A DNA stretch of 64,000 nt from IMG/VR virus record IMGVR_UViG_3300037453_000171, positions 35,881 through 99,880 of that record; one strand, 5' to 3'. A program made the position numbers and the translations under genes. The notes beneath the pieces are model-generated. The model did no database searches and had not been told where the DNA came from. It worked only from the letters and a program-made list of their open reading frames with translations. Each line of letters opens with the position of its first letter. Positions within the stretch are counted from its first letter, which is position 1. The stretch comes from a virus (Duplodnaviria; Caudoviricetes). This document shows positions 10,726 through 49,828 of the stretch, piece after piece.

Positions 10726-11089
10726 TGCCGGATTTGATTTGACGGCAGTATCTGTTGAGGAGGACAGGAAACGGAATATCGTTACCTACCATACGGGTAT
10801 TTCCGTATCGTTGCCCGAAGGATACTTCGGTCTGCTTTGCCCTCGTTCAAGCGTATATAAGCATCAGCTCCAACTGGCGAACGGATTAGGAATCATCGAC
10901 CAAGGTTATCACGGAGAGTTGATCTTCAAGTATCGTATCGTTCAGCCACACATCAGCAGGTATCCGGTAGGAGAAAGGGTGGGACAATTGGTTGTCGTTC
11001 CTTACCCGGAATTGGAACTGGAAGAAGTGGATGAATTTGAAGATTCCGACAGGGGTACCGGAGGATTCGGATCTTCTGATAACAAGTAG
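10661..11089 (+). CDS. dut: Trimeric dUTPase
   Basis: Motifs AGFDL, PRSS, GIIDQGYHG, ERVGQL, RGTGGFGSS. Confidence 0.95.
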   Translation: MKLKFKKLTPDAVMPMKAHPSDAGFDLTAVSVEEDRKRNIVTYHTGISVSLPEGYFGLLCPRSSVYKHQLQLANGLGIIDQGYHGELIFKYRIVQPHISRYPVGERVGQLVVVPYPELELEEVDEFEDSDRGTGGFGSSDNK

Positions 11090-12306
11090 TCTATTACTCT
11101 GCGATTAGCGACATCCACGGCTTCCTGATTAAACTTGACATAAATGAGAGTGGTCCTGTTGCCTGACGAATGGCCCAGTGCCTGCGAGATAACATCGAGG
11201 GAGATGCCTACTTCATAAGCAAAGGTAGCCCAGCAATGACGAGCATAGTATGTGGAGATTTCCGGGATGACCGGCGTAATGGTTTTTAACAGTCGTGGTG
11301 TACCAAATAAATCCTCCGGATCTGGAACCATCTCCCATCTTACGTCTCCTATCTCCTTCAGCTTGTCGTTCATCTCGTGTACGAAATTCTTGTAGTGCTT
11401 GCAATGGTCCATTGCCTCCAGCAGATACCGCTCTCCTCTGTATTTTTTCAGCAGTTCCTCAGCCTCCGGTTCAATCTTGATTGAATATTTCTTATGTGTC
11501 TTCTCCCGGATATATTCGAGCCTACCATTAACAATTCGTTTCTCACTAGCCAACAACAGGTCTTTCGAGTTTATTCCGATGAGATAGAACATGAGGAGGA
11601 AATAGTCGCGATACCTGCATAGATTTGCTGGTGCCGGATGGTTGAGGAACTTCCTGAAGATTTCTATGGACACGGACCGTTTCTTCGTCGGTTCATGCTT
11701 GATCGAGAAGTTCTCGAACGGATATGTCGATACGGCTCCGGTGTGTTTTGCGTAATTGCACACAGCCCGGAGACTGCGGAGATAGATGGCCCTTCCGTTT
11801 ACCCCCTGGGTCCTCGCCAGAAACCTTTCAAACTGATGCAACCATTTAAGATTTATGTCTTCCATCTTCAGCGTCTTGCCTCCGAACGCAAGAACCTTCG
11901 AGAGCGTAGTCCTGTAGATTTCTTTCGTTCCTTCCTTGATATCCCGGACAAGATATTCCGTAAACATATCTGATACGAGATGAACTGGCTTGACAACTTT
12001 CTTTTCCGCTATCGCCTGCTTGATTTGCGGAGCAGTCATAGAATCGAATCTATCCGATCTATCAGGATCTATTGATAGATACGCAATAGATCGATCGACA
12101 GAAGATTTCTTCTCCGCAAGCCTTGCGTTCAAGGCGTCGGAACCAGGAACGCCCTTGATATGATTGCCATCCCATTCATTCGGAGCCACACGGATACCGG
12201 TAGGAATCATAGCCGTTGTCCGGTTATGATAGATGGTGATGACGATGCTGCCTTTCCCGTCTTTCGCTCTACCGCGAAGATCCAGGTAAAACCTTGTTGT
12301 TGCCAT
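11002..12306 (-). CDS. int: Tyrosine integrase (Bacteroidota arm-binding + SAM-like + catalytic domains)
   Basis: N-terminal arm domain MATTRFYLD...IPTGIRVAPNEWD; YIREKT; YYARHCWAT; ISQALGH; TTLIY catalytic Tyr; start at 12306 lies downstream of a TAnnTTTG promoter. Confidence 0.92.
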   Translation of the reverse strand: MATTRFYLDLRGRAKDGKGSIVITIYHNRTTAMIPTGIRVAPNEWDGNHIKGVPGSDALNARLAEKKSSVDRSIAYLSIDPDRSDRFDSMTAPQIKQAIAEKKVVKPVHLVSDMFTEYLVRDIKEGTKEIYRTTLSKVLAFGGKTLKMEDINLKWLHQFERFLARTQGVNGRAIYLRSLRAVCNYAKHTGAVSTYPFENFSIKHEPTKKRSVSIEIFRKFLNHPAPANLCRYRDYFLLMFYLIGINSKDLLLASEKRIVNGRLEYIREKTHKKYSIKIEPEAEELLKKYRGERYLLEAMDHCKHYKNFVHEMNDKLKEIGDVRWEMVPDPEDLFGTPRLLKTITPVIPEISTYYARHCWATFAYEVGISLDVISQALGHSSGNRTTLIYVKFNQEAVDVANRRVIDYLLSEDPNPPVPLSESSNSSTSSSSNSG

Positions 12307-12322
12307 GTTGAAGTATTTACTA

Positions 12323-12330
12323 CAAATATA
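12323..12330 (-). promoter_or_regulatory. -7 promoter element for the integrase (TATATTTG)
   Basis: caaatata on the + strand, just upstream of the int ATG. Confidence 0.6.
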
Positions 12331-12336
12331 TGAATT

Positions 12337-12358
12337 TGTCTGCATACGATTCCGCATA
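12337..12358 (+). repeat. Putative integrase arm-type sites (left pair)
   Basis: TGTCTGCATA 12337-12346 and ATTCCGCATA 12349-12358, 12-bp period. Confidence 0.55.
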
Positions 12359-12466
12359 GCGAATTATAGATGTAGAATAGCGATTTTAAAGGCAAAAACA
12401 AAAAGGCTTCAAAAATCCTTGCGGGAGATTGAAGCCAATCAATTGAAAATTAAAGAGTTACTTATG

Positions 12467-12512
12467 TGGAGATAAGGGGATTCGAACCCCTGACCCCCTG
12501 CTTGCAAAGCAG
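12467..12512 (-). mobile_element. attP core: 3' half of tRNA-Ala(UGC)
   Basis: Reverse complement CTGCTTTGCAAGCAGGGGGTCAGGGGTTCGAATCCCCTTATCTCCA = anticodon arm (UGC), T arm, acceptor strand; no D arm or 5' half; adjacent to int. Confidence 0.88.
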
Positions 12513-12554
12513 TAGATTTCTCCGCTTAATCACATGACAGTCACATAAATAGAT

Positions 12555-12794
12555 ATGAAAGAAAATAATTCTGCAAATGATTCTGCAAAAATGCAGCAAG
12601 AGTTTTATACCGAAGCGCCAAAATGGAAGTGGCAGATTTTAGATTGGGAGAGAGCTAAAGAAGGGAAAATTCAGGTCATCGATGTTAATAATACTCCGCT
12701 TCTTGAAATAAAACTGAGCGATATACCAAAGCACATGAGCGTTGTCGTTTGGCTGACTATTCTGATAAATACTGGAATTATACTTAAACAATGA
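12555..12794 (+). CDS. Hypothetical protein adjacent to attP
   Basis: 79-aa ORF; ATGA overlap with the next gene. Confidence 0.5.
   Translation: MKENNSANDSAKMQQEFYTEAPKWKWQILDWERAKEGKIQVIDVNNTPLLEIKLSDIPKHMSVVVWLTILINTGIILKQ
12568..12589 (+). repeat. Putative integrase arm-type sites (right pair)
   Basis: ATTCTGCAAA twice (12568-12577, 12580-12589), 12-bp period, same orientation as the left pair. Confidence 0.6.
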
Positions 12795-13261
12795 ACTACG
12801 ACTTAACCAACAAGGAGAACAGACTTCGGTTTATCCGTCGATGTAACTTCCTGCTGAAGAACCAGCGGAACAATGTTTCGTTGGTGGATGAATCGAACCG
12901 AACCCTTAACCAGAACAGTTATATCCATGTATTGTGCAGAGTGCTTGCACAGGACATCGGTGTAACTGAACGGTACGCCAAGCAGGTTTATTTCAAGGAA
13001 CTGGCTAATCCGGATGTGTTCGTCACCGTTACGAAAGATCCGCTTACCGGAGATATGATGAAAGTAATCCGAAGCACCTGCGATCTTACCATCCAGGAAA
13101 TGCGTAATGCCATTGATGGGTTCATCAAATGGGCGGCGGATAATGGTTACGATTTACCGGAGGCAAACATTAATGATGACGGCACGATGGAGTTTGCATC
13201 TGAAGAAGATCGGCAGAAATTCCATCAAGCAGAAATTGAAACAAGTAAAGTTGAACTATGA
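12791..13261 (+). CDS. NinB/DUF1367-like recombination protein
   Basis: RTLNQNSYIHV...IRSTCDLTIQEMRNAID pattern. Confidence 0.65.
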   Translation: MNYDLTNKENRLRFIRRCNFLLKNQRNNVSLVDESNRTLNQNSYIHVLCRVLAQDIGVTERYAKQVYFKELANPDVFVTVTKDPLTGDMMKVIRSTCDLTIQEMRNAIDGFIKWAADNGYDLPEANINDDGTMEFASEEDRQKFHQAEIETSKVEL

Positions 13262-13529: not shown

Positions 13530-16500
13530 CTAATACTGAGCGTCATTCTTGTAGTAGTTGATGAGTGGCTGAGGATCGAGGAAGTTATCCACTTTCTTAG
13601 CCATCGAGATGATAGGCAGTTCGCGGAAGTACTTGTAGGCTTTCTTGTGTCCACGATATCTTCCGGACTTGACAGTCTGCATGTAGTTCGACGGAACAAG
13701 AAGTTGGAACGCATTAATCGTGTTGGTCAGCGGTTCGATAGCAGCGAACGGAGATTTCAGGATATGCATGGCTTCATCTACCAACATAGGAGTAGGAGCC
13801 ATTGCGCCGATTTCCGTACGGAGCCTCAACATCTGCGACATCACCGTCTGATCCCACCACTTCAGAACCTTTCCACGGTCATCGCCCTCATATTCAGGCG
13901 GCGGTATCTTCCCAAGCAGGGCACAGGCAAGATACAATCCAACAACAGTGGCAAGTTCAATCATGGAACGATGAACGTTGGATTTCTCGTAATCGTTCAT
14001 CTTGTTCCAGTTGAGTGAGATGGATGTACGGAGAGCCTTCAAGTCATCGACGATATTCAGCATCGACTTAGCACTCTCTTCTTCGCTCACCTGCTCCTTG
14101 GTCGAAACAACGATATCGTGGAGAAGTCTGAACATCGTAGCGTGATATCCTTCCTCGTGTCTGCCTTTCAGTGCATTGTAATGGACGCCTGCATATCTTC
14201 TCTTGAGTGAAGGAGCGATCCATTTACGATACATGATAAGCAGGGCGCCGAGGGCATATTGCTGGACTGCGCTTCTGTCATCCAGATTGTAGATACCTTG
14301 CAGTTCGAAGTTCAGTCCGGCAACGGCTTTCGCAAACTTGATCTCGTCATCCTGCGTCAGTGCAGAACCGTCAGCTTTCGTGTACCCATCCTTCAGTTGC
14401 AGATAGGCTCCAGTCTTTCGAGCCGGATCGGTATACTTGACCTCGTAGGCATCCCACAGATTAGCATCCTCTCCGTAAGGGCCCCTCATCTTGAAGTTCC
14501 TCGCAACAGACAGAGCAGTAGTGGAAGCAAGCAGGTCTTCACCCATCGTCAATCCGGCATACAGAAGGCTGCTGTTGAATATCTTCGAAAGCCGGGATCT
14601 CTTATAGCTCAAGTTCTTATATTTCCGTCCGTTATCCTGATGGACATCGAATTTGTCGAGCCACAGGGATAGTTTGTTATCATAGTCGGTCTTACCGGTT
14701 TCAGCAAGACGGTCTCCAGATTCCTTCATATACAGACCAAGCGCCCATTTCGTATCTGCAATCGAGAAGGTCTTCGCTCCAACAGTTTCAAACAGGATCT
14801 GAGTAAGGCCGACACTGATGTTGGCGATACGTTGTGGAATATTGACTGCCATCTGGGAGTAGGAGGTGATTGCATTCAGCGTATCGACAGCTTTTCTCTT
14901 GGAGATCTTCGTATTTCCGATCGTTCCTTCGTTAGCCTGGATATGCCCGTAGATATGCATCTGGAAGAAATCTTCCAGTGCTGCAGCGATATTGGTTTCA
15001 GCCTGCTTCTTTGTAAACGGATTATGGAAGATAGCGTTTTCGGTTTCGATCGTTTCCCGCTTCGTCTTCTTTCCGGCGTGTTGTCCGACTTCTCTCTGGG
15101 ATGACATGAATTTCGCATTCTCGAGAATGCCGATAACGTTGTTCAGTTCACCATATTCATAAGCCATACCGGCATATGCGAGAATAGAGGCGGCAACATC
15201 GTCAATCATATCGTCGAAGGATTCATTCTTGCCCTTTGCGAGATAATTGACCGGAAGCATATCTACCTGATTGCCCTCGAAGTCCACGCGGATCTCGTAG
15301 TTGTCATAATCGATACTGGAAGATGTGTCAAGAATACTGTTGCGAACTCCTTCCCAGACCTCCATGGTCTTCTGCTTGATACCTTCTGATTCCTTCACGC
15401 GATCCCAGGTGTACTTGCGAAGCATGACGATCTTGCGTTCTCCAGTGAGAGAGTCGGGAAGATATCCGTCAGCGTCCTTCTTGATTTCCATCATCGTCTG
15501 ATAGAATCGATACTTCGCACCGCCGAGCTCCTTGGCCTTGTCTTCCGTGATGTATTCGCCAGACTTGTGAAGCTTGCCATCATCCTGTCTTCCGTCGCAC
15601 CACTTGCCGCCGTCATACCGCTTCCACTCGAACATCCAGCTCTGGTCATTCGAGCCGGTTTCCTTGATGAGTTCGGCAACAGCCTTTTCGATACGCGGCT
15701 TGATGGACAAGGTGCGGCTTCTCGCCTTATACTTCGCGCTTCTGGTCAAGTCATCGATTGCGTTCAACGCATAGTCGTTACAGTCGGCAATAGCATGGAA
15801 CCAGCGGGAGGCAAGCGAGATGTCTCGGTCTGCGCGATGAGCCATCTCATCAATCGTGATGACTCGCCCTTTCTCCTTGCCGATGTCAATAGTAACTCCG
15901 TGTTCTCCGTATACATTCGACAGCATTTCCTTGAAGTAATGCATCGCCTGCATATTGTAGTATTCGAAGAATCTACGGAGAACACCAGCGGTTTCATTGA
16001 TGGCCTGTGACAGCCCGACGGAATCCTTGACTTCGCCTTCCGCAATGGCCTTGCTGACATCATCGAGAACAGCGGAGAAACCATACAGCGTGTCACGAAC
16101 CATATTAAGTTTACGACAGATTTCATTCGCTTTGTACTTACCGGAATCAATATCGCTCGTCAGTTTCTCCTGCGTTTTAGTCAAGAAATCCAGCGAATCG
16201 TTCATATAAGTAATGATCGCATCTTCTGTCTTGTAATTCTTGATGGAATTCTCCAACTTCTTAATCTGAAGTTCAACGGCGGCAATGGATTTGCTTTCGC
16301 GCATCTTCTCCTTGTCGTATCCGATACGGCGCTGAAGAATGTCCAGACGCTTCAGTTCGTTCTTGAGAATCCGATGAAGGACATCTTCCTTTCCATCAAG
16401 ATTCTTCTTGACCTTCTCTGCCTTTGCGTAAAGCTGTCCGTTACGGTTGATATCCTGTAGCGTCTTATCGTCGAGAATCTTTCCGCCGAGAAGTTCGCGT

Positions 16501-19500
16501 CCTATCTTGGAAGCGATATCATTAGCTTCGAAGATGGCGTTCTGAATTTCATCACGGCGGAACCTGCGCAGGAATGACTTGATAGCATCAACAACACGCT
16601 GCAGAATCCGTCTGACAGGACTGGTGCGAATCTCCTCCTGCCTGAACATCTGCTTGGCAACCAGTTTACCGGCAGCTTCAGTGACGAGTTTCTCGCGGTC
16701 ATTGCCGTATGATTTTACATAATCATCGTACTGACCTTCGAACGCTTCACGGAGCGCATCGTCGTTGTTATTCAGGACATCGAGCAACCGCTTCACGAGA
16801 GGATTGTCGTGACCTATCATCTCGATACCGAAGTGAGCGAATTCTTCCGGCAATGCACTCTCTCCGAGATAGCCTTCAGCGATACGAATCATCTCCTTCA
16901 GACCTTCGGCGGTTACCATAGCGGTATCGAAATCAGTGACACCGGCGAGCGACATTCTCGCTTCGAGTTCGTTCAACGCACCGACAGCGACGCCTTTCTC
17001 GCGAAGTATCTCACGAAGTCTTGCATTCAATCTGGAATAGACACGCTGCTTTCTTGCTTCACGGATGTTTGCTGGAGTAGCAGGAACACGTTCCGTTTTG
17101 ATTTTACCATCAGGCTGGCGACGGGCAATAGACAGATAGTTTCCTTTCTTGACAGTAGTTTCAGCTTCGGGATTTGCACCGACTTTCGCTTTCTCGAGAG
17201 CAGCCATATCTACACCGGCAAATCCAAGCCCCATCATCGGAGTGTAATTGGCAAGTATCTCGTCTTCTGCAGTAAGCGGTGGAGGAGTTTCATCCATCTG
17301 CCCATTTTGCTGCGATGCGGCTTCTGCCTTCTGTTCCAGTTCTTCCATTGAATTGGCTTCCTGCTGTGTTGGAATAAGACCAAGCGAAGCGGCAAAGCCG
17401 GTTCCAATTTTAGTCTTATCTACCTCACCGTTTCTTACGGCACCAATCGAATTGACATATCCGTGAGTATAAGTTGAATTCTCAAGCCCGGCTTCGTAGT
17501 TGGATTCAGCAAAATGATTCTCCTCAACATCATCACGAACACCCCACGCGCTGTCGTTACCGGCAACAATGGGATGAACCTCCCAGAAGTTCAGTCTTGG
17601 ATTATATTGAAGCGTCACCTGATTACCTTGAAGTCTTACGCCAAGTTTTTCTGCGACAACGGGATGAATTGCGCCATTGCGATCCTTGTCGAGACGATAC
17701 AGGATTTGCGTGCGATGATCCGGATCTCCTGCATTTAGAATAATATATCTCTCATCCTTGATTCGGTCATACAACTGTGGATTCAATTCTCTGGTAATAG
17801 AATCGACACCAATCGGGAATGTCTTGTCGGTTACATTAAGAAGGAACTTGGAATCTCCCCAGTGGTTCAGGATATACTGATTGATAAAGTTCTCCTCCTC
17901 GACAGAGTCACTTGTCCAAGTAGATCTCTGAACTTCACGAAGCGCATCGATGTATCCTGGAGTTTCCATCAGGACGGAGAACGGAGCGAAGTGCGCGAAC
18001 TCGTACATACCGTATCCGAATCCGCTCGTATACATATTGTACTTGAACAGATCGACCGCAAGCTTGCGGACGCTTTCATCACTGCTCTGCAGCATCTCTC
18101 CCCAGTAAGCACGGATACTGTCCGCCATGCCTTCCACGGCAGGACCGTTGAGGCTGAACAGGATTCGCGGCCTGTCCTTGGTCTCTTCCGGAGAAGTAGT
18201 CGTGAACTTATCAAGGAAGGCGTTGTCGATCAGGGCTTCAGCCGCAGGATCTTTTCCAGGATTCTGTTTCGCGTTTTCAATACGCTTCTTCAGCATCCTC
18301 AAGTCATGCGGGACATCGACAATGATGCGTTTTTGTTCCTCCTGCGGGTCTCCTTGGATAAATTTCTCGTTATCAAGAAGTTTCCAGAGGATCATTTCCT
18401 GCGTGATATGCTCGATGATGGACCGCTTCGCATCCTTACTGTTGACGTGATACATCTTGAATATCTTCCTCGCGGTACCGATCCAGTCGGCACGAGCCTG
18501 CGGGAAGTATTCCTTGAACATATCAAGGCTGGAATCCATCATCAAGGAATTCAGAGCGACAACTTCCGTCAACTTATCGCCGAGTTGTTCCATGATAAAT
18601 TTTGGATCCCATCCTTCGTGAACATCTCGCTTCTTCAATACATCACGCATTCCGGAAATATGAATCGAGCTGTCGGGGTTCTTGGCAAGTTTCTCGCGGA
18701 AATCCTCGAGTGCGATATGCTTCAGGATGATATCCGAAATGCTCGAACCGATGGAGCCGGAATCAGACTCTGGTCTTGTAAGCCGAATGAAATCAGCGAG
18801 CGTCTTCGCGCCGGATGACAGATGAGATAAGATATAAAGGATACCCGTCTGCTGATTGATGAGAGGAATGTCTTGCGAATTCTTGATTTCTTCAAGTGAC
18901 ATCTGAAGCGTACCGATATAGTCTTCTTCTTTCATCGCGCCAGCTTTCTCGATGGCGTCAGAGAAGGAAACTCGCTTGTCATTGAACTGGGATTGAAGCT
19001 CCTCGACCAACTTTTCGGCTTCTTTGCGAAGTCCTTCACTGTCGCGCCCTTTCAGTCTATTGATAAGTTCGATGACAACCGGCTGGTTCATGATAAGATG
19101 AACCTGCTCCTCGTCGATACCAGCAGCAAACAGGAAGGATGTCATCTCTGCCATTTCCTTGGTCTGATTCAAGTAGCCGAGAATAGGATCCTTACCATTA
19201 TCAACGGCGGCGTTCAGAAGACGGGCAAGACCGAGTGAAGCAAATGTACCTTCACGGTTCTCGACACTGAACAGCTCCTTAATAGGTTTACCGAACAAAT
19301 TGATAACGGTCCTGTAACCTTCTGCGTTTTCGGAAGGAACATATTCCATGTCAAGACGCTGAAGCATCTGTTGGGCGGAATTATACAATGCATAGATACC
19401 GATCATCTCCGCACCACCCATCAGATAGTCATAGGCGTCAAGTGAGTGGGTCAACGTATACGGAGTATCTGCGTTGCTGACGGCACGGACAAGAACAGTT

Positions 19501-22500
19501 AGATCGTCATCGTATAAATCGGTAAGAACCTCATACATACCGACAACGCTTCCAAATGCTTTCGCTGCTTTTTCGTTTTCCAATCCGAGACCGCCATACT
19601 TCGTATCAAGAACCATGGTGTCGCAGATTTTCTTCTTCAGTGTCGGATCTTTCGCGAGTCGTACAAGATGTAACGTCTTCGCATATATCTTAGATTCCTC
19701 ACAACCACCAGGAATAAGAACACGACGGCTTCCTTCGACAGAAGTCAACTGACCGCGAGTCAAAGCAATCATCATGTTATGCCTTGCCCTTGCACTGTTC
19801 TCAAGTGGAGATTTACTGGAATCATAAGACACAACTCTGACCTTCCGGAATTTACTTCCGCCAGGAATATCGCCATTGATAACAGCTTCCCTCCATTTCT
19901 TGAATCCGTTCAGCGCGGCATTAACATCCTTGTCCTTGATGTTTCCGATAGCAAGATTAGCAGCACCGGCATCTGTTCCAAGACCAAGAAGACGATCGTA
20001 TTCCTCGTTCAGTTTATCTTCATCCCAGACAACATCGTATTCCGGAAAATCAGCACGAAGCTTATCACCATCAAAGTCCTGACCAGTAGTAACCATCGCT
20101 TCCTTGGCGACCTTCATGTTACTTCCTTCCAGCCTTGACGAGAACCATTTGACACGACAAGGAACCGTGGAGTGTTCCGCATCGGAAGGCGTACGAGATG
20201 CATCAAACAGGAGGGCTTCCATAGGAATAATTCCATTCTCCACAAGGCCCTTGATGTGATTGCCATCCTTGTCTTCATATCCCCATAGCATCTCCGGAGT
20301 AATCTCGCCATCTGCATTAGCAAACTCACGAAGCGCCTCCGGCAAAGGAAGACCAGCATCAAACCATTTCAATCTCTGATTCTTTCCTTCTCCCTGGAAT
20401 TCAACACCGAGTTTATAAGATTCCGGGAAACCACCCATGTACGGATCGACATCGGCTTCCATTCCAACTGCGGTCGTTACAAGAATATTCGCACCCTTCG
20501 TCTTGATCTTCGTCATCCGTTTCTTGATGATGGACGCAAGCAACTCCTGAACCTGATGTGCTACATTAGGTGAGAACATCGGGAGGGCAAAAGTTCCGTC
20601 GGCAAGATGAGTCAAGGCAAACTTCAGTTCCTGCGGCTGATAGGATTTATTAGCAAGCTCCTCCTTAAATATCCTTTCAAGCTGGTCAGTATCCGTGAAG
20701 ACCTCGCGGATTTTCTTGTATGCTTCAACGATATTAGCGGACTTCAGCTTGTAGTACAAATCTCTTGCTTCGGTGGCCAGCATCGGAACGCCGTTGACTT
20801 CTATCATATCGCCGGGCTGGATATTAGCCCAGACGGTCTTCTCCTTCTGCGAAGCACGAGCAATCTTGTCATCAACACCGTGAGGAGGAGTAGCTGCAGC
20901 GATGCCGTAATACTTATACGGGATCGTATGTATGGACCACTTATTTGCTTTCACGGAAGACACGAGATAATCCGTGATGGACTTCTCGTCCTTCAGGATA
21001 TGCTCGTTCAGTTTCTGACCCTTCCAGCCATGCGCTTTCCTTTCTTCGTCATCCTTGAAATCGCTCCAGCGCATCAAAGGCTTGACAAGTGAATGAGCGC
21101 CTACCTTCGCACCGGAATGGAACAGGAACAAGTCAACCGGCTTTCCTTGCTTCTTCAGTTCTGCCTGTGCCGCATCAAATGCGCGAAGCGGAACGGACTG
21201 CGCGGAAAGACAGTACTTAGACAAAGCAACCGGGAGAAGAACAGCTTCGGAATACTTGTGCAGGAAAGTAAGCTTGACGGGTTTCTGGAGTTTGCCTTCT
21301 GCGGCATCGATATGTTCAAATCCAGTAGCAACCGGCTTGATATTCTGCATGAAAACATCAATGTCGCCCTTCAGCGGTTTACCGGCAATGATTCTCTGAT
21401 AAGCAGATTCGTGTCTGTCATCCCACTGGTCAGACATAATCATCACGTCACGATACGACTCGAGTGTACGGAATCCTTGACCGTCAGTAGATTTGATCTT
21501 CGAGTAAGCCTTCTTCATCCCGCGATACTGGACCGGAGTGATAAGTTCTTTGTCCAGTAAATCTTTCAACATCCCGAGAATTGACTTCAAGAATGCAGAC
21601 TCGGAAACCTCATCGCCAACATACATCACATTCTCCGACTCCTTTCCAACCGGTTTCCCGTTCCAGGTAGCGTTGGTATAAAGCGAAGTACGAGTGGCAT
21701 GAAGCAGCATGTTTCGCTTCTCGAAATCAATCAAGCCGTCAAAGTTCTGAAGACCGCCATCCCAGAGCTTGACCATCTGAAGACGGGCATAGAAGGTATT
21801 ATAGAACCATTCATCCAGCTTCTTTCTGGAGGACTCCTTCAGAGAGCTGACTTTACCGTCCTTTGAATATACTCCGAGATCGCGGAGATATCTATTCGTA
21901 AGAATTCCTTCCTTCTCGACGGTTTCGATATCCTTCTGCCTGATCTTCTCGAGCTGTGCGGCAACTTGCTCTTTAACGAACTGTCTCGCATCATTCGGAT
22001 TCGTTCTTTCCTTATATGCCTGACGAAATCCGTTGTCATTGAACTCAGGGAATATCTGGAATTTCATTCCCTGTCTTTCATAAACGGACAGAACCGGTCT
22101 GTTCTTTCCGTCTTTGTCATTCTTGACACGTTCCTCGATTGCTGCGATACGTTCTGTTTCGGCAAGAACTTCATCGGCAATAGCCTCGACGAGATCGGAA
22201 TCAACCAGACTGACAGGTTCGTTCCATTCCTCTACTGGTTTAGTCTCATCAGTAAACGTATCGATGCTTAACTTCGGGCAGTAACAGAAGTTATAAGCAG
22301 TGGAATAGTCTGACTGGATCGGGAATTCCACGGCGCAGAACGGTTCCGTTCCCTGCGAGAACATCCTCGACGCCTTGAAGAACTGAACAAGTGAGTTGGT
22401 CAGCTTCTGCGGACGAGTCAGCTTCGCATATTCGACATGATTGAATGTCGGCATATCCGTAACGCGCATCGCTTCACGGATGTCAGTCTGTCTGTACTTG

Positions 22501-24482
22501 CCGGAAGCAAGCCACTTCAACCAACCTATAGCCCTTCTGTCTGCTCCATATCCGAGAGACATCCCTTCATATCTCAGGAATTCGTTCTCAAGGCGTTCCT
22601 GATAGCTGCCGGGACCAGGACCTTCTTCCAGATGATCGGCATTCGTCAGAAGATCAAATATCTGATGAAGAAGATTGACATTGTTATAAGCCGACATCGA
22701 CTTGCCGTCCATATTCGTACGGGGTTCGACCTCGTTGTATTTTGCAAGAGCGATGCAGTTGTCTATATGACGGTATTCATCAGCGCAGGTGTTGTAGAAA
22801 TACTGTCCCGTTTTCGGACCTGTTCCTTTCCAGATTTCTTCTGCCCTTTCATATGCGGCGTCCATCCAGGCAACAAGACGGTACAGTTTATTGCGCCCCT
22901 TCGTAGCTTTCCAGTCCTTCCATCCTGCAACATATCCGAAACTCTTCGGGTCCATCTGCTGAAGGGAGATAGTTTCAACTTCGTCAGGTGTGATGGAATA
23001 TCCAAGTCCACGAAGATAATCCGATACCTGCTTTGGAACATCCGGATTCAAGCGGAAGAATTCCTTCATCGCATCGACGGGTTCGAGCTTCTCATATTCC
23101 TGCGTGACATTCTTGGGCTTCTTATCGCCCTTGACCATGCGGATATTCTGCGTGCCATTGATGATTCTGTCTTTCAGCTCCGTAAATTTCTTATGAATTT
23201 CCCGGATCTTATCAGCATCTCTCAAGCTTCCATATCCGACATAGATGCTCGTATCTTCATCAAGGACATAACCGGCGGAGACATTGCTTCCCGCGTCACG
23301 CATCAGGGCATGACCCTGAGAACGGGAATTGGCGATATGCGGAGTGTAAGAATTCCCCTCGATATTCGTATAGATAAACAGAGTAGCGGCTTTCTTGAAG
23401 TTGCAATACACCGTAGTCTGCTTATCCGGATTCTTTTCCAGCTCATTGATGACACCTTTCATCCATGGATTGTTGTCGGAAGCAGCACGGAGATCATCCA
23501 TCATCGTCGCCGGATTGGAATTGATGAGAGCTGTTGTTAAACCAATGGCGGCTTGTCTGCTGTCAAGATATCTTGTCCGCCCAAGATCATCCTTTACGAC
23601 ATTCCCGGTAGCGTCAGTTTTTGCAATCCTGCTGATCAGCCTTCTCGCACGAGGACCAAGCGTTTCCATCATCTTGACAATTCGGAAATCAGCGTAACGC
23701 TCTCCCTTGGAGGACTCGTCTGCATCTGTTCCATCTTCGTTCCGGACATCTTCCATCGGAGAATTCAAATCCTTCACATCCTCGAAACTGATTTCGAAGT
23801 CACGGACATTGACAATGAACCCTTCTCCTTCACCGATAGACGAAGCGGCAAGGGCAGCGAGTCTTTCCTTGTTGGCAAGAACAGTGTTGTATTCTTGGGA
23901 AAGATACTCAGACTTTCTTCTCGCTTCAGCCAGTTCTTCTTCCGTAGCATCAGGATACTTCGCCTTGTAGCGATTCATCATATCTTCAACATTGCCATAC
24001 AGTCTCTTGAGCTTATTGAAGACTGTATTCATGATGACAACATATCCGTTATCCTTTCCGTCTCCCTGCGCTTTCAGTAGTTCTTGACGGGAACGTCCGG
24101 TTTTATCAGCAGCAACAATCTTATCCAGCTCCTTCCTGAACTCATCATTCAGCATTCCGATACGGTCAGCAAGAACCTCCGGAGTATAGGTTGAATACAA
24201 TGTACTGTACAGACGAGATATATCATCACGCTGCATCGATGCGGATGTCTGAGAAAGTTTGACGCGCTTCAGCTCATGATTCATGAACCGCGTGAACACG
24301 CCTTTTCCCGCAGAATCTTCCGGGAACCAGTCGAACGGATATTTATCGCTGTGTGTTTCTCGGAACAGCTGCAACGCTATGGCAAGATGATGGTCGTTGT
24401 AATGCCGTGGTGCATAGTATTCCTTCATCCTCTGGAATTCAGGAAGCGCTTTCAGCACCTTCATGTTAGGACAGAATCTCAT
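13530..24482 (-). CDS. Virion-packaged crAss-type DNA-dependent RNA polymerase polyprotein (~3650 aa)
   Basis: Catalytic DFDGD at 20064-20078; STDGQG; RTP motif; zincin-like LPEEFAH at 16833-16856; position after the cargo genes; ATG 24482 (MRFCPN) preferred because the promoter abuts GTG 24500. Confidence 0.9.
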   Translation of the reverse strand: MRFCPNMKVLKALPEFQRMKEYYAPRHYNDHHLAIALQLFRETHSDKYPFDWFPEDSAGKGVFTRFMNHELKRVKLSQTSASMQRDDISRLYSTLYSTYTPEVLADRIGMLNDEFRKELDKIVAADKTGRSRQELLKAQGDGKDNGYVVIMNTVFNKLKRLYGNVEDMMNRYKAKYPDATEEELAEARRKSEYLSQEYNTVLANKERLAALAASSIGEGEGFIVNVRDFEISFEDVKDLNSPMEDVRNEDGTDADESSKGERYADFRIVKMMETLGPRARRLISRIAKTDATGNVVKDDLGRTRYLDSRQAAIGLTTALINSNPATMMDDLRAASDNNPWMKGVINELEKNPDKQTTVYCNFKKAATLFIYTNIEGNSYTPHIANSRSQGHALMRDAGSNVSAGYVLDEDTSIYVGYGSLRDADKIREIHKKFTELKDRIINGTQNIRMVKGDKKPKNVTQEYEKLEPVDAMKEFFRLNPDVPKQVSDYLRGLGYSITPDEVETISLQQMDPKSFGYVAGWKDWKATKGRNKLYRLVAWMDAAYERAEEIWKGTGPKTGQYFYNTCADEYRHIDNCIALAKYNEVEPRTNMDGKSMSAYNNVNLLHQIFDLLTNADHLEEGPGPGSYQERLENEFLRYEGMSLGYGADRRAIGWLKWLASGKYRQTDIREAMRVTDMPTFNHVEYAKLTRPQKLTNSLVQFFKASRMFSQGTEPFCAVEFPIQSDYSTAYNFCYCPKLSIDTFTDETKPVEEWNEPVSLVDSDLVEAIADEVLAETERIAAIEERVKNDKDGKNRPVLSVYERQGMKFQIFPEFNDNGFRQAYKERTNPNDARQFVKEQVAAQLEKIRQKDIETVEKEGILTNRYLRDLGVYSKDGKVSSLKESSRKKLDEWFYNTFYARLQMVKLWDGGLQNFDGLIDFEKRNMLLHATRTSLYTNATWNGKPVGKESENVMYVGDEVSESAFLKSILGMLKDLLDKELITPVQYRGMKKAYSKIKSTDGQGFRTLESYRDVMIMSDQWDDRHESAYQRIIAGKPLKGDIDVFMQNIKPVATGFEHIDAAEGKLQKPVKLTFLHKYSEAVLLPVALSKYCLSAQSVPLRAFDAAQAELKKQGKPVDLFLFHSGAKVGAHSLVKPLMRWSDFKDDEERKAHGWKGQKLNEHILKDEKSITDYLVSSVKANKWSIHTIPYKYYGIAAATPPHGVDDKIARASQKEKTVWANIQPGDMIEVNGVPMLATEARDLYYKLKSANIVEAYKKIREVFTDTDQLERIFKEELANKSYQPQELKFALTHLADGTFALPMFSPNVAHQVQELLASIIKKRMTKIKTKGANILVTTAVGMEADVDPYMGGFPESYKLGVEFQGEGKNQRLKWFDAGLPLPEALREFANADGEITPEMLWGYEDKDGNHIKGLVENGIIPMEALLFDASRTPSDAEHSTVPCRVKWFSSRLEGSNMKVAKEAMVTTGQDFDGDKLRADFPEYDVVWDEDKLNEEYDRLLGLGTDAGAANLAIGNIKDKDVNAALNGFKKWREAVINGDIPGGSKFRKVRVVSYDSSKSPLENSARARHNMMIALTRGQLTSVEGSRRVLIPGGCEESKIYAKTLHLVRLAKDPTLKKKICDTMVLDTKYGGLGLENEKAAKAFGSVVGMYEVLTDLYDDDLTVLVRAVSNADTPYTLTHSLDAYDYLMGGAEMIGIYALYNSAQQMLQRLDMEYVPSENAEGYRTVINLFGKPIKELFSVENREGTFASLGLARLLNAAVDNGKDPILGYLNQTKEMAEMTSFLFAAGIDEEQVHLIMNQPVVIELINRLKGRDSEGLRKEAEKLVEELQSQFNDKRVSFSDAIEKAGAMKEEDYIGTLQMSLEEIKNSQDIPLINQQTGILYILSHLSSGAKTLADFIRLTRPESDSGSIGSSISDIILKHIALEDFREKLAKNPDSSIHISGMRDVLKKRDVHEGWDPKFIMEQLGDKLTEVVALNSLMMDSSLDMFKEYFPQARADWIGTARKIFKMYHVNSKDAKRSIIEHITQEMILWKLLDNEKFIQGDPQEEQKRIIVDVPHDLRMLKKRIENAKQNPGKDPAAEALIDNAFLDKFTTTSPEETKDRPRILFSLNGPAVEGMADSIRAYWGEMLQSSDESVRKLAVDLFKYNMYTSGFGYGMYEFAHFAPFSVLMETPGYIDALREVQRSTWTSDSVEEENFINQYILNHWGDSKFLLNVTDKTFPIGVDSITRELNPQLYDRIKDERYIILNAGDPDHRTQILYRLDKDRNGAIHPVVAEKLGVRLQGNQVTLQYNPRLNFWEVHPIVAGNDSAWGVRDDVEENHFAESNYEAGLENSTYTHGYVNSIGAVRNGEVDKTKIGTGFAASLGLIPTQQEANSMEELEQKAEAASQQNGQMDETPPPLTAEDEILANYTPMMGLGFAGVDMAALEKAKVGANPEAETTVKKGNYLSIARRQPDGKIKTERVPATPANIREARKQRVYSRLNARLREILREKGVAVGALNELEARMSLAGVTDFDTAMVTAEGLKEMIRIAEGYLGESALPEEFAHFGIEMIGHDNPLVKRLLDVLNNNDDALREAFEGQYDDYVKSYGNDREKLVTEAAGKLVAKQMFRQEEIRTSPVRRILQRVVDAIKSFLRRFRRDEIQNAIFEANDIASKIGRELLGGKILDDKTLQDINRNGQLYAKAEKVKKNLDGKEDVLHRILKNELKRLDILQRRIGYDKEKMRESKSIAAVELQIKKLENSIKNYKTEDAIITYMNDSLDFLTKTQEKLTSDIDSGKYKANEICRKLNMVRDTLYGFSAVLDDVSKAIAEGEVKDSVGLSQAINETAGVLRRFFEYYNMQAMHYFKEMLSNVYGEHGVTIDIGKEKGRVITIDEMAHRADRDISLASRWFHAIADCNDYALNAIDDLTRSAKYKARSRTLSIKPRIEKAVAELIKETGSNDQSWMFEWKRYDGGKWCDGRQDDGKLHKSGEYITEDKAKELGGAKYRFYQTMMEIKKDADGYLPDSLTGERKIVMLRKYTWDRVKESEGIKQKTMEVWEGVRNSILDTSSSIDYDNYEIRVDFEGNQVDMLPVNYLAKGKNESFDDMIDDVAASILAYAGMAYEYGELNNVIGILENAKFMSSQREVGQHAGKKTKRETIETENAIFHNPFTKKQAETNIAAALEDFFQMHIYGHIQANEGTIGNTKISKRKAVDTLNAITSYSQMAVNIPQRIANISVGLTQILFETVGAKTFSIADTKWALGLYMKESGDRLAETGKTDYDNKLSLWLDKFDVHQDNGRKYKNLSYKRSRLSKIFNSSLLYAGLTMGEDLLASTTALSVARNFKMRGPYGEDANLWDAYEVKYTDPARKTGAYLQLKDGYTKADGSALTQDDEIKFAKAVAGLNFELQGIYNLDDRSAVQQYALGALLIMYRKWIAPSLKRRYAGVHYNALKGRHEEGYHATMFRLLHDIVVSTKEQVSEEESAKSMLNIVDDLKALRTSISLNWNKMNDYEKSNVHRSMIELATVVGLYLACALLGKIPPPEYEGDDRGKVLKWWDQTVMSQMLRLRTEIGAMAPTPMLVDEAMHILKSPFAAIEPLTNTINAFQLLVPSNYMQTVKSGRYRGHKKAYKYFRELPIISMAKKVDNFLDPQPLINYYKNDAQY

Positions 24483-24501
24483 ACTCTTGTTATTAAACAC
24501 A

Positions 24502-48295: not shown

Positions 48296-49828
48296 TTAAG
48301 CCTGAAGGATGGCGGGGATAAGGGAGATACACCGGGTCGGGTCGTAGATGACCAGACCGAGGGTAGCCTTGTAATGGACCACCGCGCTGTCTTCATCGTA
48401 GGAAGCGGAGCTGTTGTTGGTCTCGCCCGTGAACGGGTTGGAGAACGGACCCCACTGATAGCCACGCAGTTCGGGCATGCCCTTCACCGTGCACTTCTGG
48501 ACATTCGGCTGCTCCTCGTCGGCGGCATAGAAGATGTCGAACCGATAGGACTCGGCGGTACCACCCAGCGGGTGCATGATCTTGTTGGTCTGCATGTCAT
48601 CCTTGGAGGAATCGATCATGACGGTAACCTCAAGACCATTGGCGGAAAGCCAGCGGGTAACCTGGAAGTCGGCGATGGTAGCGGCGTTGCCGTTGGTGAA
48701 GTTGGTCTCCGGGCCCTTCGTCATGTAGGACGGAGTGGAAGCGGAATACAGAGGAATCCAGCCGGACATCTCCTTCTTGGCTTCCTTGCTGAACAGGATG
48801 GCGCCACGCTCACCGGTACGCAGGACGAACTTGCGCTTGTTGAAATCGAGCTTGCCAGCGGAGATACCGTAGAGGGCGTCCTCGACAAGACCGATGGTGA
48901 ACTTGTTGTAGTACATCATATTACCCTGAGCCTGCTGCTGGCGGAAACCGGCACCCTGCTCATTGGGCAGACCAGACAGACCGAAGTTGGAATACTCGCC
49001 GTTCTCCATCCGGGTGCTGACACCGCGGTCGAGGGCGTTGTTCTTGTACTCGCTCCAGGTCTCCTCGATCTTCCAGGTCACGTTGTAGATCCAGCGATCG
49101 ACGGTGGTGTGCTGGATCTTGCCGTTGACTTCCTTGGAAACGGGGATGCGGCAGCAGAGACGCTTGCCAAGCTCGCGACCACCGATCTTGTGCTGGATAC
49201 GGAGGCGGCTCCAACCCTGACGCATGGAAACGGGGGTGCTGAAACGGACGTCACCGACCTTGCGGGAGAAGTCCTTCTCGATAGGAGCATAGGCCCAGCT
49301 GAAACGCTCACCGGGGAGAAGGCGGTCCTTCGGGATACCACCGGCAAGGTGAGCACCGAACGGCTCGACGAGATACACGGTGTTGGTACCTTCGGCGTGA
49401 CCCATCTCCTTCACGATGACGGGATACTCTTCATTGAAATTGCCCCAGAGGACTTCGCCGAGAGCGAACCAGTCGACAGGGAAAACGAGATAGAACGGCT
49501 CGAAACCACGACCGATGTTGTGGTCGGTAGCAGCCGTGATCGGAGTGCCGTCGCACTCACGGGCCTCCACCAGAGGAATGTTCCGGCGGGAGGAGGACAC
49601 GACATCCCAGAACAGATCGGTATCATCTTCGTATTCACGGACGGGAACCTCACGGGAGAGGTAGGTGTCCAGAGTCGGAAGATGCATCTGGCTCATGAGG
49701 ACGGTCATGACATCGCTGGCCATCTGAGGGTTGGAACGGAAGATGTTATAAAGGTGGTTGTCCTTCGTAACGGTTCCTCTCCAAGCGGTGATGCCAACAT
49801 TAGTGGAATTGACTAAAGGTCCTGGCAT
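48296..49828 (-). CDS. Major capsid protein (crAss-like HK97 fold)
   Basis: 510 aa; FVLRTGERGA; HPLGGTAESYRF; YDPTRC; strongest codon bias; follows the acidic scaffold. Confidence 0.88.
   Translation of the reverse strand: MPGPLVNSTNVGITAWRGTVTKDNHLYNIFRSNPQMASDVMTVLMSQMHLPTLDTYLSREVPVREYEDDTDLFWDVVSSSRRNIPLVEARECDGTPITAATDHNIGRGFEPFYLVFPVDWFALGEVLWGNFNEEYPVIVKEMGHAEGTNTVYLVEPFGAHLAGGIPKDRLLPGERFSWAYAPIEKDFSRKVGDVRFSTPVSMRQGWSRLRIQHKIGGRELGKRLCCRIPVSKEVNGKIQHTTVDRWIYNVTWKIEETWSEYKNNALDRGVSTRMENGEYSNFGLSGLPNEQGAGFRQQQAQGNMMYYNKFTIGLVEDALYGISAGKLDFNKRKFVLRTGERGAILFSKEAKKEMSGWIPLYSASTPSYMTKGPETNFTNGNAATIADFQVTRWLSANGLEVTVMIDSSKDDMQTNKIMHPLGGTAESYRFDIFYAADEEQPNVQKCTVKGMPELRGYQWGPFSNPFTGETNNSSASYDEDSAVVHYKATLGLVIYDPTRCISLIPAILQA

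What the first reader, a model, noticed from the sequence alone, without database searches (positions are those of the whole stretch)
12467..12512. Predicted attB is tRNA-Ala(UGC), which usually sits in the 16S-23S rRNA spacer
Seen: the core spans the anticodon arm (UGC) to the discriminator base, and identity stops at the base of the anticodon stem. Established: tRNA-Ala(UGC) genes are commonly located in rrn operon spacers. Inference: integration could place a large prophage between 16S and 23S in a multicopy target. Such prophages would often be missed, because assemblies break at rrn operons.
Basis: inference. Interest (0 to 1): 0.7.

Follow-up and report, generated by a model that had tools for sequence, protein, structure and literature searches.

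The report
tRNA-Ala attachment site of crAss-like phage
A 100-kb crAss-like rumen phage carries, next to its integrase, a 47-base copy of the end of an alanine tRNA gene, the ordinary signature of a phage that inserts into that gene; whether the bacterial copy lies inside a ribosomal RNA operon could not be tested.

Summary
Window 12466-12512 is the reverse complement of tRNA-Ala(UGC) from position 28 of the anticodon stem to one base past the discriminator. It is unique in the window. It lies about 160 nt upstream of a Bacteroidota-type tyrosine integrase, between arm-type repeats. The window is part of a complete 99.9-kb Crassvirales genome from a bovine gut (probably rumen) metagenome, so this is attP.

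Eleven related phages keep the same layout. One relative with a 56%-identical integrase was found both free and inserted at tRNA-Lys(CUU) of a Bacteroidales bacterium, so the module works in this clade.

The rrn-spacer idea is neither shown nor refuted. The exact core occurs in only one of 185,579 species genomes and one extra metagenome contig. Both are tRNA-Ala genes outside a 16S-23S spacer, but both encode CCA and look Bacillota-like, so they are probably not hosts. No attL or attR for a tRNA-Ala-type phage turned up, and no Bacteroidales genome could be reached with the tools. In the source sample, the assembly graph shows another DNA sharing exactly this 48-nt block.

My estimate is about 40% rrn spacer and 40% stand-alone gene.

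This scan had already described the same attP on two sister phages.

The parts
12466..12512 (-). attP core: 47-bp copy of tRNA-Ala(UGC) positions 28-74 (anticodon arm, variable loop, T arm, acceptor 3' strand, discriminator and one more base)
   Evidence: Conserved in 11 related attPs. The Logan contig break in the source run implies a shared block 12465-12512.
11002..12306 (-). tyrosine integrase, 434 aa from the ATG at 12306 (the frame is open up to 12357)
   Evidence: Pfam Arm-DNA-bind_5, Phage_int_SAM_5 and Phage_integrase. 1439 homologues, the best 87% identical, starting at the equivalent ATG. Invariant R233, R356, H379 and Y389 in alignment A1.
12323..12330 (-). TATATTTG, a Bacteroidota -7 promoter-like motif (TAnnTTTG) before int
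   Evidence: Read from the sequence. Present in all close relatives. Function inferred.
12337..12359 (.). P' arm: two ATTCYGCATA-like repeats, candidate arm-type Int sites
   Evidence: Same motif and orientation as the P-arm pair. Function inferred.
12394..12436 (-). 8-bp hairpin (GGCTTCAA/TTGAAGCC, 16-nt loop) followed by a T run on the tRNA/int strand: terminator-like element just after the tRNA copy
   Evidence: inverted repeat I2. The simple terminator scan missed it because its loop limit is 8 nt. Hairpins at the same place in relatives.
12513..12552 (.). P-arm block conserved among tRNA-Ala-type phages (TCACAT repeats, GTGATTAAGCGGAG on the other strand)
   Evidence: Role unknown.
12563..12586 (.). 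P arm: tandem AAATRATTCTGC repeats (12-nt period), candidate arm-type Int sites, inside the start of ORF 12555-12794
   Evidence: D1. TTTGCAGAAT pairs in all relatives.
12555..13261 (+). phage genes on the P side: 79-aa ORF and NinB-like ORF. They show that this is the unintegrated form.
   Evidence: The same neighbours occur in all attP contigs of relatives.

Best explanation
The 47 bases are the core of the attP site of a temperate-capable crAss-like (Crassvirales) phage from a bovine gut (probably rumen) metagenome. The adjacent heterobivalent tyrosine integrase would bind the arm repeats on both sides and the symmetric anticodon stem. It would then exchange strands in or next to the anticodon loop of a host tRNA-Ala(UGC) gene. 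After insertion, the host 5' part plus the phage-borne 3' part would rebuild an intact tRNA-Ala, followed by the phage hairpin/T-run and then int. The displaced host 3' part would sit at the far end of the prophage. The host is most likely an uncultured rumen Bacteroidales bacterium. Shown: the sequence identity, the module's anatomy and conservation, and real integration by a clade member at another tRNA. Inferred: the crossover position, the host, and integration by this phage. Open: whether the target tRNA-Ala(UGC) sits in a 16S-23S spacer (my estimate about 0.4) or is a stand-alone gene (about 0.4).
For: The core is 47/47 identical to a real tRNA-Ala(UGC) gene and unique in the window. The record is a complete 99,880-bp virus with a 127-bp terminal repeat, and phage genes lie on both sides of the site. 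The integrase has Arm-DNA-bind_5, SAM_5 and catalytic domains. PF17293 rings only in B. thetaiotaomicron among 14 control genomes. All integrase relatives in the phage collection are Bacteroides temperate phages. The capsid protein is about 50% identical to Bacteroides crAss-like phages. Eleven distinct related attPs share one layout: repeats, tRNA-Ala 3' part, hairpin, repeats, TAnnTTTG, int. Their flanks have diverged but the tRNA-shaped block is kept, with paired changes in the anticodon and T stems. More distant integrases (36-40% identical) sit about 130 nt after whole tRNA-Gly or tRNA-Pro genes at provirus ends. Integrase P0113 (56% identical) is found with an identical protein in attP contigs and in three attL contigs. 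The attL contigs read phosphatase gene, tRNA-Lys(UUU), tRNA-Lys(CUU), int. attL and attP are identical for 208 nt upstream of int and diverge 5 nt before the anticodon stem. The host flank is 91% identical to a protein of an NCBI 'Bacteroidales bacterium' MAG. In the probable source run, the phage's Logan contigs stop at 12494 and restart at 12483. For k=31 this leaves a shared 48-nt node, 12465-12512, so another DNA in that sample carries exactly this block with other flanks.
Against: No attL or attR of this phage or of any tRNA-Ala-type relative was found among about 45 contigs looked up or by junction patterns in IMG/VR. No contig carrying these integrases exceeds about 105 kb. No Bacteroidales genome with the exact core was found. 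The commonest T-arm variant among relatives has a C-A mismatch in the T stem.
Confidence: 0.85

Rival explanations
1. One reading: the host tRNA-Ala(UGC) lies between 16S and 23S. A roughly 100-kb prophage would then split one of several rrn operons, and such lysogens would be invisible in short-read assemblies and MAGs.
For: Own knowledge, not tested here: in cultured Bacteroidota, as in E. coli, the UGC isoacceptor is normally found only in rrn spacers together with tRNA-Ile(GAU). The exact core is absent from every Bacteroidales genome among 185,579 species, mostly MAGs that lack rrn operons, and from other JGI metagenome contigs. Yet the source sample holds another DNA with exactly this block. 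tRNA-Ala-type phages gave no assembled junction, and several contigs break inside the core, whereas the tRNA-Lys-type relative gave junctions in 3 of 6 contigs.
Against: No rRNA or tRNA-Ile was seen next to any copy of the core. The only whole genes that match are outside spacers. All clade members with a known target use stand-alone tRNAs: Lys, Gly, Pro. I know of no described large prophage inside an rrn operon, and two literature searches found none. Logan contigs (k=31) break at any shared 31-mer, so breaks in the core do not need an rrn context. The contigs I looked up were biased towards abundant free phage.
Confidence: 0.4
2. The target is a stand-alone tRNA-Ala(UGC) gene of an uncultured rumen Bacteroidales bacterium, an ordinary tRNA attB.
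For: This is the rule for tRNA-targeting integrases, and it is what relatives do. Stand-alone tRNA-Ala(UGC) genes with this exact 3' part exist in nature (L002, L007). The phage supplies a terminator-like hairpin directly after the tRNA copy, as elements at stand-alone tRNAs do.
Against: If such a gene existed in a rumen Bacteroidales MAG it should have been hit by the exact scan of 185,579 species, and it was not. The two matching loci encode CCA, while the Bacteroidales host tRNAs seen here do not and the phage copies do not keep CCA.
Confidence: 0.4
3. The host is the Bacillota-labelled lineage that carries the exact match (L002), not a Bacteroidales bacterium.
For: This is the only 47/47 genomic match. 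The contig starts 626 bp after the tRNA inside a Rep/helicase-like ORF, which hints at mobile DNA at this tRNA.
Against: No homologue of the integrase family was found in that MAG or in 40 relatives. None of 60 relatives, and only 1 other of 150 genomes of the phylum, has a similar tRNA-Ala. The phage is a Crassvirales member with a Bacteroides-type integrase and promoter motifs. Outside the core the contig shares nothing with the phage. In the source run the other DNA shares CA, not CCA, after the discriminator.
Confidence: 0.05
4. The module is a relic, or serves something other than integration (for example resolving multimers of an episomal phage), and the phage does not lysogenise.
For: Only free or circular forms were seen for tRNA-Ala-type phages.
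Against: The core is exactly conserved while the flanks diverge. The integrases are intact, with invariant catalytic residues across 25 sequences. Stem changes are paired. A clade member is integrated.
Confidence: 0.07

Closest known systems
Anticodon-centred ('A' sublocation) tRNA attachment sites of tyrosine-integrase islands and prophages (Williams 2002; Islander database, PMC4383910)
   Same: attP carries the tRNA from the anticodon stem to the 3' end. int lies next to the regenerated tRNA. A displaced 3' fragment is expected at the far end. Islander counts 2083 islands of this type.
   Different: The carrier is a 100-kb crAss-like phage. The target isoacceptor, Ala(UGC), is rarely used to my knowledge, and its usual genomic home is an rrn operon.
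Bacteroidota IntDOT/NBU-type integrases and integrases of temperate Bacteroides phages (BS-TP2, Bacuni F1/F2/F4, Versailles)
   Same: Same domain set (Arm-DNA-bind_5, SAM_5, catalytic domain). 27-38% identity to the phage integrases. NBU1 and NBU2 also use tRNA 3' ends (own knowledge).
   Different: Identity is 38% at most. These are not crAss-like phages and use other target genes.
Sister crAss-like phages with the same attP (IMGVR_UViG_3300028888_000006, IMGVR_UViG_3300028591_000169, many ENA/Logan contigs)
   Same: Integrases 70-87% identical, same att layout, and in one case the same 46-mer. Already described by this scan (e1-5866426, e1-5889720).
   Different: T-arm and anticodon-stem variants differ. 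Other clade members carry Val, Pro or Lys fragments instead.
Mycobacteriophage Ms6, attB in a tRNA-Ala gene (own knowledge, not checked here)
   Same: A phage that integrates into a tRNA-Ala gene and restores it.
   Different: Unrelated integrase and host. The core lies at the extreme 3' end. Mycobacterial rrn operons hold no spacer tRNAs, so the question of rrn disruption does not arise.

Membership tests
tRNA-targeting tyrosine-integrase attP (anticodon-centred type) | A tyrosine recombinase gene next to the site | tested here: met
   Pfam domains. Invariant R233, R356, H379 and Y389 in 25 homologues.
tRNA-targeting tyrosine-integrase attP (anticodon-centred type) | attP holds the 3' part of a tRNA gene starting at the anticodon stem and identical to a real tRNA gene | tested here: met
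   47/47 to tRNA-Ala(UGC) of L002 and L007, starting at position 28.
tRNA-targeting tyrosine-integrase attP (anticodon-centred type) | Arm-type repeats on both sides of the core | tested here: met
   Repeats at 12563-12586 and 12337-12359, same motif and orientation, present in all relatives. Binding not tested.
tRNA-targeting tyrosine-integrase attP (anticodon-centred type) | attL/attR junctions with host DNA | tested here: inconclusive
   Found for a 56%-identical relative at tRNA-Lys(CUU) and for 36-40% relatives at tRNA-Gly/Pro. Not found for this phage or any tRNA-Ala-type relative.
rrn-spacer tRNA-Ala(UGC) as the target | tRNA-Ile(GAU) and 16S upstream, 23S downstream of the matching tRNA gene | tested here: not met
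   For the only matching genes. L002/L009 has pgm-like, CoA-transferase, MATE and NrdG genes upstream, and no rRNA in 11.6 kb. L007 is an array of 10 tRNAs with no rRNA in 3.9 kb. These loci are probably not hosts.
rrn-spacer tRNA-Ala(UGC) as the target | The same test on the true (Bacteroidales) host | not testable with these tools
No Bacteroidales genome handle could be obtained.
Crassvirales | crAss-type major capsid protein and genome of about 100 kb | tested here: met
   phrog_11589, E 5e-66. 48-51% identity over the full length to Kolpuevirus, DAC15/17 and PhiCrAssBcn. 99,880 bp.

The most novel reading that the evidence does not exclude
This branch of crAss-like phages lysogenises rumen Bacteroidales by inserting about 100 kb between tRNA-Ala and 23S of one rrn operon. 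That target is multicopy, and short-read assemblies and MAGs systematically fail to show it. This could hide a good part of crAss-like lysogeny.
Probability: 0.35. Interest if true: 0.75.

Novelty: new member of a known kind. Interest (0 to 1): 0.4.

Why it matters
crAss-like phages are the best-known abundant gut phages and are usually treated as non-integrating. A working integrase/attP module shows that a rumen branch can lysogenise. A clade member caught inserted in Bacteroidales DNA supports this. If the tRNA-Ala target really lies inside rrn operons, these prophages would split a ribosomal operon. They would also be missed by standard assemblies, which would change how lysogeny is counted in gut viromes. 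As it stands, the confirmed part is an ordinary tRNA attachment site that this scan has already described on sister phages.

Tried and rejected
- Exact 46-mer scan of genome contigs: one hit, not Bacteroidales.
- Exact scan of metagenome contigs: a sister phage, the same termite contig and one tRNA-array contig. No junction.
- IMG/VR scans for an attR-like pattern (P arm, core, CC) and an attL-like pattern (tRNA 5' extension, core, int promoter): nothing.
- A relaxed pattern for whole tRNA-Ala genes with this acceptor stem in IMG/VR: only tRNA arrays of large gut phages with tmRNA and HDV-like ribozymes, all encoding CCA.
- Twelve exact-protein look-ups. Nine were on tRNA-Ala-type integrases (P0088, P0002, P0036, P0009, P0056, P0149, P0121, P0137, plus this phage's own, which is not on record) and one was on the P-side 78-aa ORF. 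These gave only attP forms, or contigs that start or stop in or near the core.
- Cluster members: none on a contig above 104.7 kb.
- Read laying on four bovine runs: no joints. The loose ends are a mixture of many tRNA-Ala genes at 90% or more identity and cannot be assigned. Coverage gaps are not evidence.
- Both core variants against PLSDB plasmids: no Bacteroidales.
- Literature: no description of this attP, nor of a prophage at an rrn tRNA-Ala, in the library.
- Relatives and phylum of the Bacillota MAG: the tRNA variant is rare and the integrase family was not found. The pgm orthologue check and the Shine-Dalgarno check of the contig did not settle its taxonomy.
- Outward promoter in the P arm that could drive a downstream 23S: none convincing by eye or by scan.

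Full report
**What the window is.**
- The window is bases 35881-99880 of a 99,880-bp IMG/VR virus record rated complete, with a 127-bp terminal repeat.
- Its major capsid protein (48296-49828, minus strand) matches the crAss-type head family. It is 48-51% identical over its full length to Kolpuevirus, DAC15/DAC17 and PhiCrAssBcn phages, whose hosts are all Bacteroides.
- The only run holding the stretch almost whole is a bovine gut metagenome.
- This is therefore a crAss-like phage from a bovine gut (probably rumen) sample, in its free form.

**The observation.**
- Bases 12467-12512 read on the minus strand as a tRNA 3' part: anticodon stem and loop with anticodon TGC, variable loop, T arm, acceptor 3' strand and discriminator A.
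- The stretch is unique in the window. No whole tRNA is present.
- The only genomic exact match in 185,579 species genomes is a complete tRNA-Ala(UGC) gene, L002 627-702.
- BLAST gives 47/47 identity, window 12466-12512. Nothing else is shared between that contig and the phage.

**Why it is an attP.**
- About 160 nt downstream in the tRNA sense lies a 434-aa tyrosine integrase with Arm-DNA-bind_5, SAM-like and catalytic domains.
- Between the core and int there is an 8-bp hairpin with a T run, two ATTCYGCATA-like repeats and a TATATTTG motif. On the other side there is a tandem pair of the same repeat and then phage genes, including a NinB-like one.
- Eleven distinct related phages show the same order of parts. 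Their flanks have diverged but the tRNA-shaped block is kept.
- Among these phages, two versions of the anticodon-stem 3' strand (GCAG, GCAT) and two T arms (AGGGG/CCCCT, GCCGG/CCGAC) occur in all four combinations. The acceptor strand TATCTCCAC is invariant.
- More distant clade members carry Val(UAC), Pro(UGG) or Lys(CUU) fragments at the same place.
- Still more distant integrases (36-40% identical) lie about 130 nt after whole tRNA-Gly or tRNA-Pro genes at provirus ends.

**Integration is real in this clade.**
- Integrase P0113 (56% identical to the window's) is encoded, with an identical protein, on two kinds of contig. Three contigs have phage genes upstream (attP). Three contigs, each from a different assembly, read SpoIIE-phosphatase gene, tRNA-Lys(UUU), tRNA-Lys(CUU), int.
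- The two forms are identical for 208 nt upstream of int and part 5 nt before the anticodon stem. This fits strand exchange at the anticodon arm.
- The bacterial flank has a TAnnTTTG promoter and tRNAs without encoded CCA. Its protein is 91% identical to one from an NCBI 'Bacteroidales bacterium' MAG.
- The integrase family's relatives in phage records are all Bacteroides temperate phages. Its arm-binding domain rings only in B. thetaiotaomicron among 14 control genomes.
- The host of the window's phage is therefore very probably a Bacteroidales bacterium.

**The rrn question: what the matches say.**
- The proposed check, exact matches in genomes, returned no Bacteroidales genome.
- The two whole genes that carry the exact core are outside 16S-23S spacers. 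L002/L009 has a phosphoglucomutase-like gene, a CoA-transferase, a MATE transporter and NrdG upstream, and no rRNA on the 11.6-kb contig. L007 is an array of ten tRNAs without rRNA.
- Both encode CCA.
- L002 belongs to a termite-gut MAG labelled Bacillota. None of its 60 relatives has the tRNA variant within three mismatches. Only one other of 150 genomes of its phylum has a similar gene. The integrase family was not found in it or in 40 relatives.
- I therefore regard these two loci as look-alikes, not hosts. They do not settle the question either way.

**The rrn question: indirect evidence.**
- In the probable source run the phage's Logan contigs end at 12494 and restart at 12483. With k=31 and 30-nt overlaps, this leaves a separate 48-nt node, 12465-12512.
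- This means some other DNA in that sample carries exactly this block but differs at 12464 and at 12513. A sister phage would share 12513-12516, so the other DNA is more likely a tRNA gene or a junction. It has CA, not CCA, after the discriminator.
- If that is the host gene, the gene is identical to the core. Yet it is missing from all MAG-based Bacteroidales genomes and from other contigs of the JGI collection. This is what an rrn location would produce, but a rare host would produce it too.
- About 45 contigs carrying tRNA-Ala-type integrases were all attP, or broke in or near the core. None exceeds 105 kb. By contrast, the Lys-type relative gave junctions in 3 of 6 contigs.
- That contrast fits an unassemblable target. 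However, my sample was biased towards abundant free phage, and I could not inspect the many short contigs.
- Against the rrn reading: every known target in the clade is a stand-alone tRNA, I know of no large prophage inside an rrn operon, and I found none in the literature.

**Verdict.**
- The observation and the attP reading are sound, and they are the ordinary kind of tRNA attachment site.
- The host assignment to Bacteroidales is well supported.
- The claim that gives the finding its interest, insertion into a 16S-23S spacer, remains an untested inference. I put it at about 0.4, level with a stand-alone target.
- Two earlier follow-ups of this scan described the same module on sister phages. 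The rrn idea had also been noted there without a test.

Noticed in passing
L108 1-1120, L111, L112 versus L107 2650-3003: A crAss-like relative (integrase 56% identical) is assembled both free and inserted after tRNA-Lys(UUU)-tRNA-Lys(CUU) of a Bacteroidales bacterium in three different assemblies. All three attL contigs start at nearly the same point inside the upstream phosphatase gene.
   Followed up: partly
L026 5807-5852, L021, L022, L117, L028, L106, L119, L121: Eight distinct phages carry a T stem GCCGG/CCGAC with a C50-A64 mismatch. The two T arms and the two versions of the anticodon-stem 3' strand occur in all four combinations among the phages. This suggests shuffling of att halves or several host tRNA variants.
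   Followed up: partly
L002 1-626: The termite-gut contig starts 626 bp after its tRNA-Ala, inside an ORF with Walker A, Walker B and ITTN motifs (SF3-helicase or Rep-like). This may be the edge of another mobile element at this tRNA.
   Followed up: no
L007 1712-2529: In a ten-tRNA array, the 0.8-kb gap between tRNA-Ile(GAU) and tRNA-Ala(UGC) is filled with pieces of tRNA-like sequence (decayed tRNA genes or insertion scars).
   Followed up: no
L123-L139 (IMG/VR, human gut): Large phage contigs (up to 389 kb) carry dense tRNA arrays, a tmRNA gene and HDV-like ribozymes of the F. prausnitzii type. Their tRNA-Ala has the same acceptor stem and anticodon arm as the core, but with CCA.
   Followed up: no
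window 13530-24500 (minus strand): A single 3656-aa ORF begins about 1 kb from the att site. Relatives have 3570-3867-aa versions, and one carries a cpYpsA Pfam hit.
   Followed up: no
window 12513-12552: The P-arm block next to the core (TCACAT direct repeats; GTGATTAAGCGGAG on the tRNA strand) is conserved in most tRNA-Ala-type phages (absent in L028 and L113). The Lys-, Val- and Pro-type attPs inspected do not show it. Its role is unknown (operator, Xis or host-factor site?).
   Followed up: no
L141, L142 (G199 C13 and C30, positions 9-54): In one genome of the MAG's phylum, two contigs both begin 8 nt after a tRNA-Ala(UGC) 3' end. This is the pattern expected when a repeat such as 23S follows the tRNA.
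   Followed up: no
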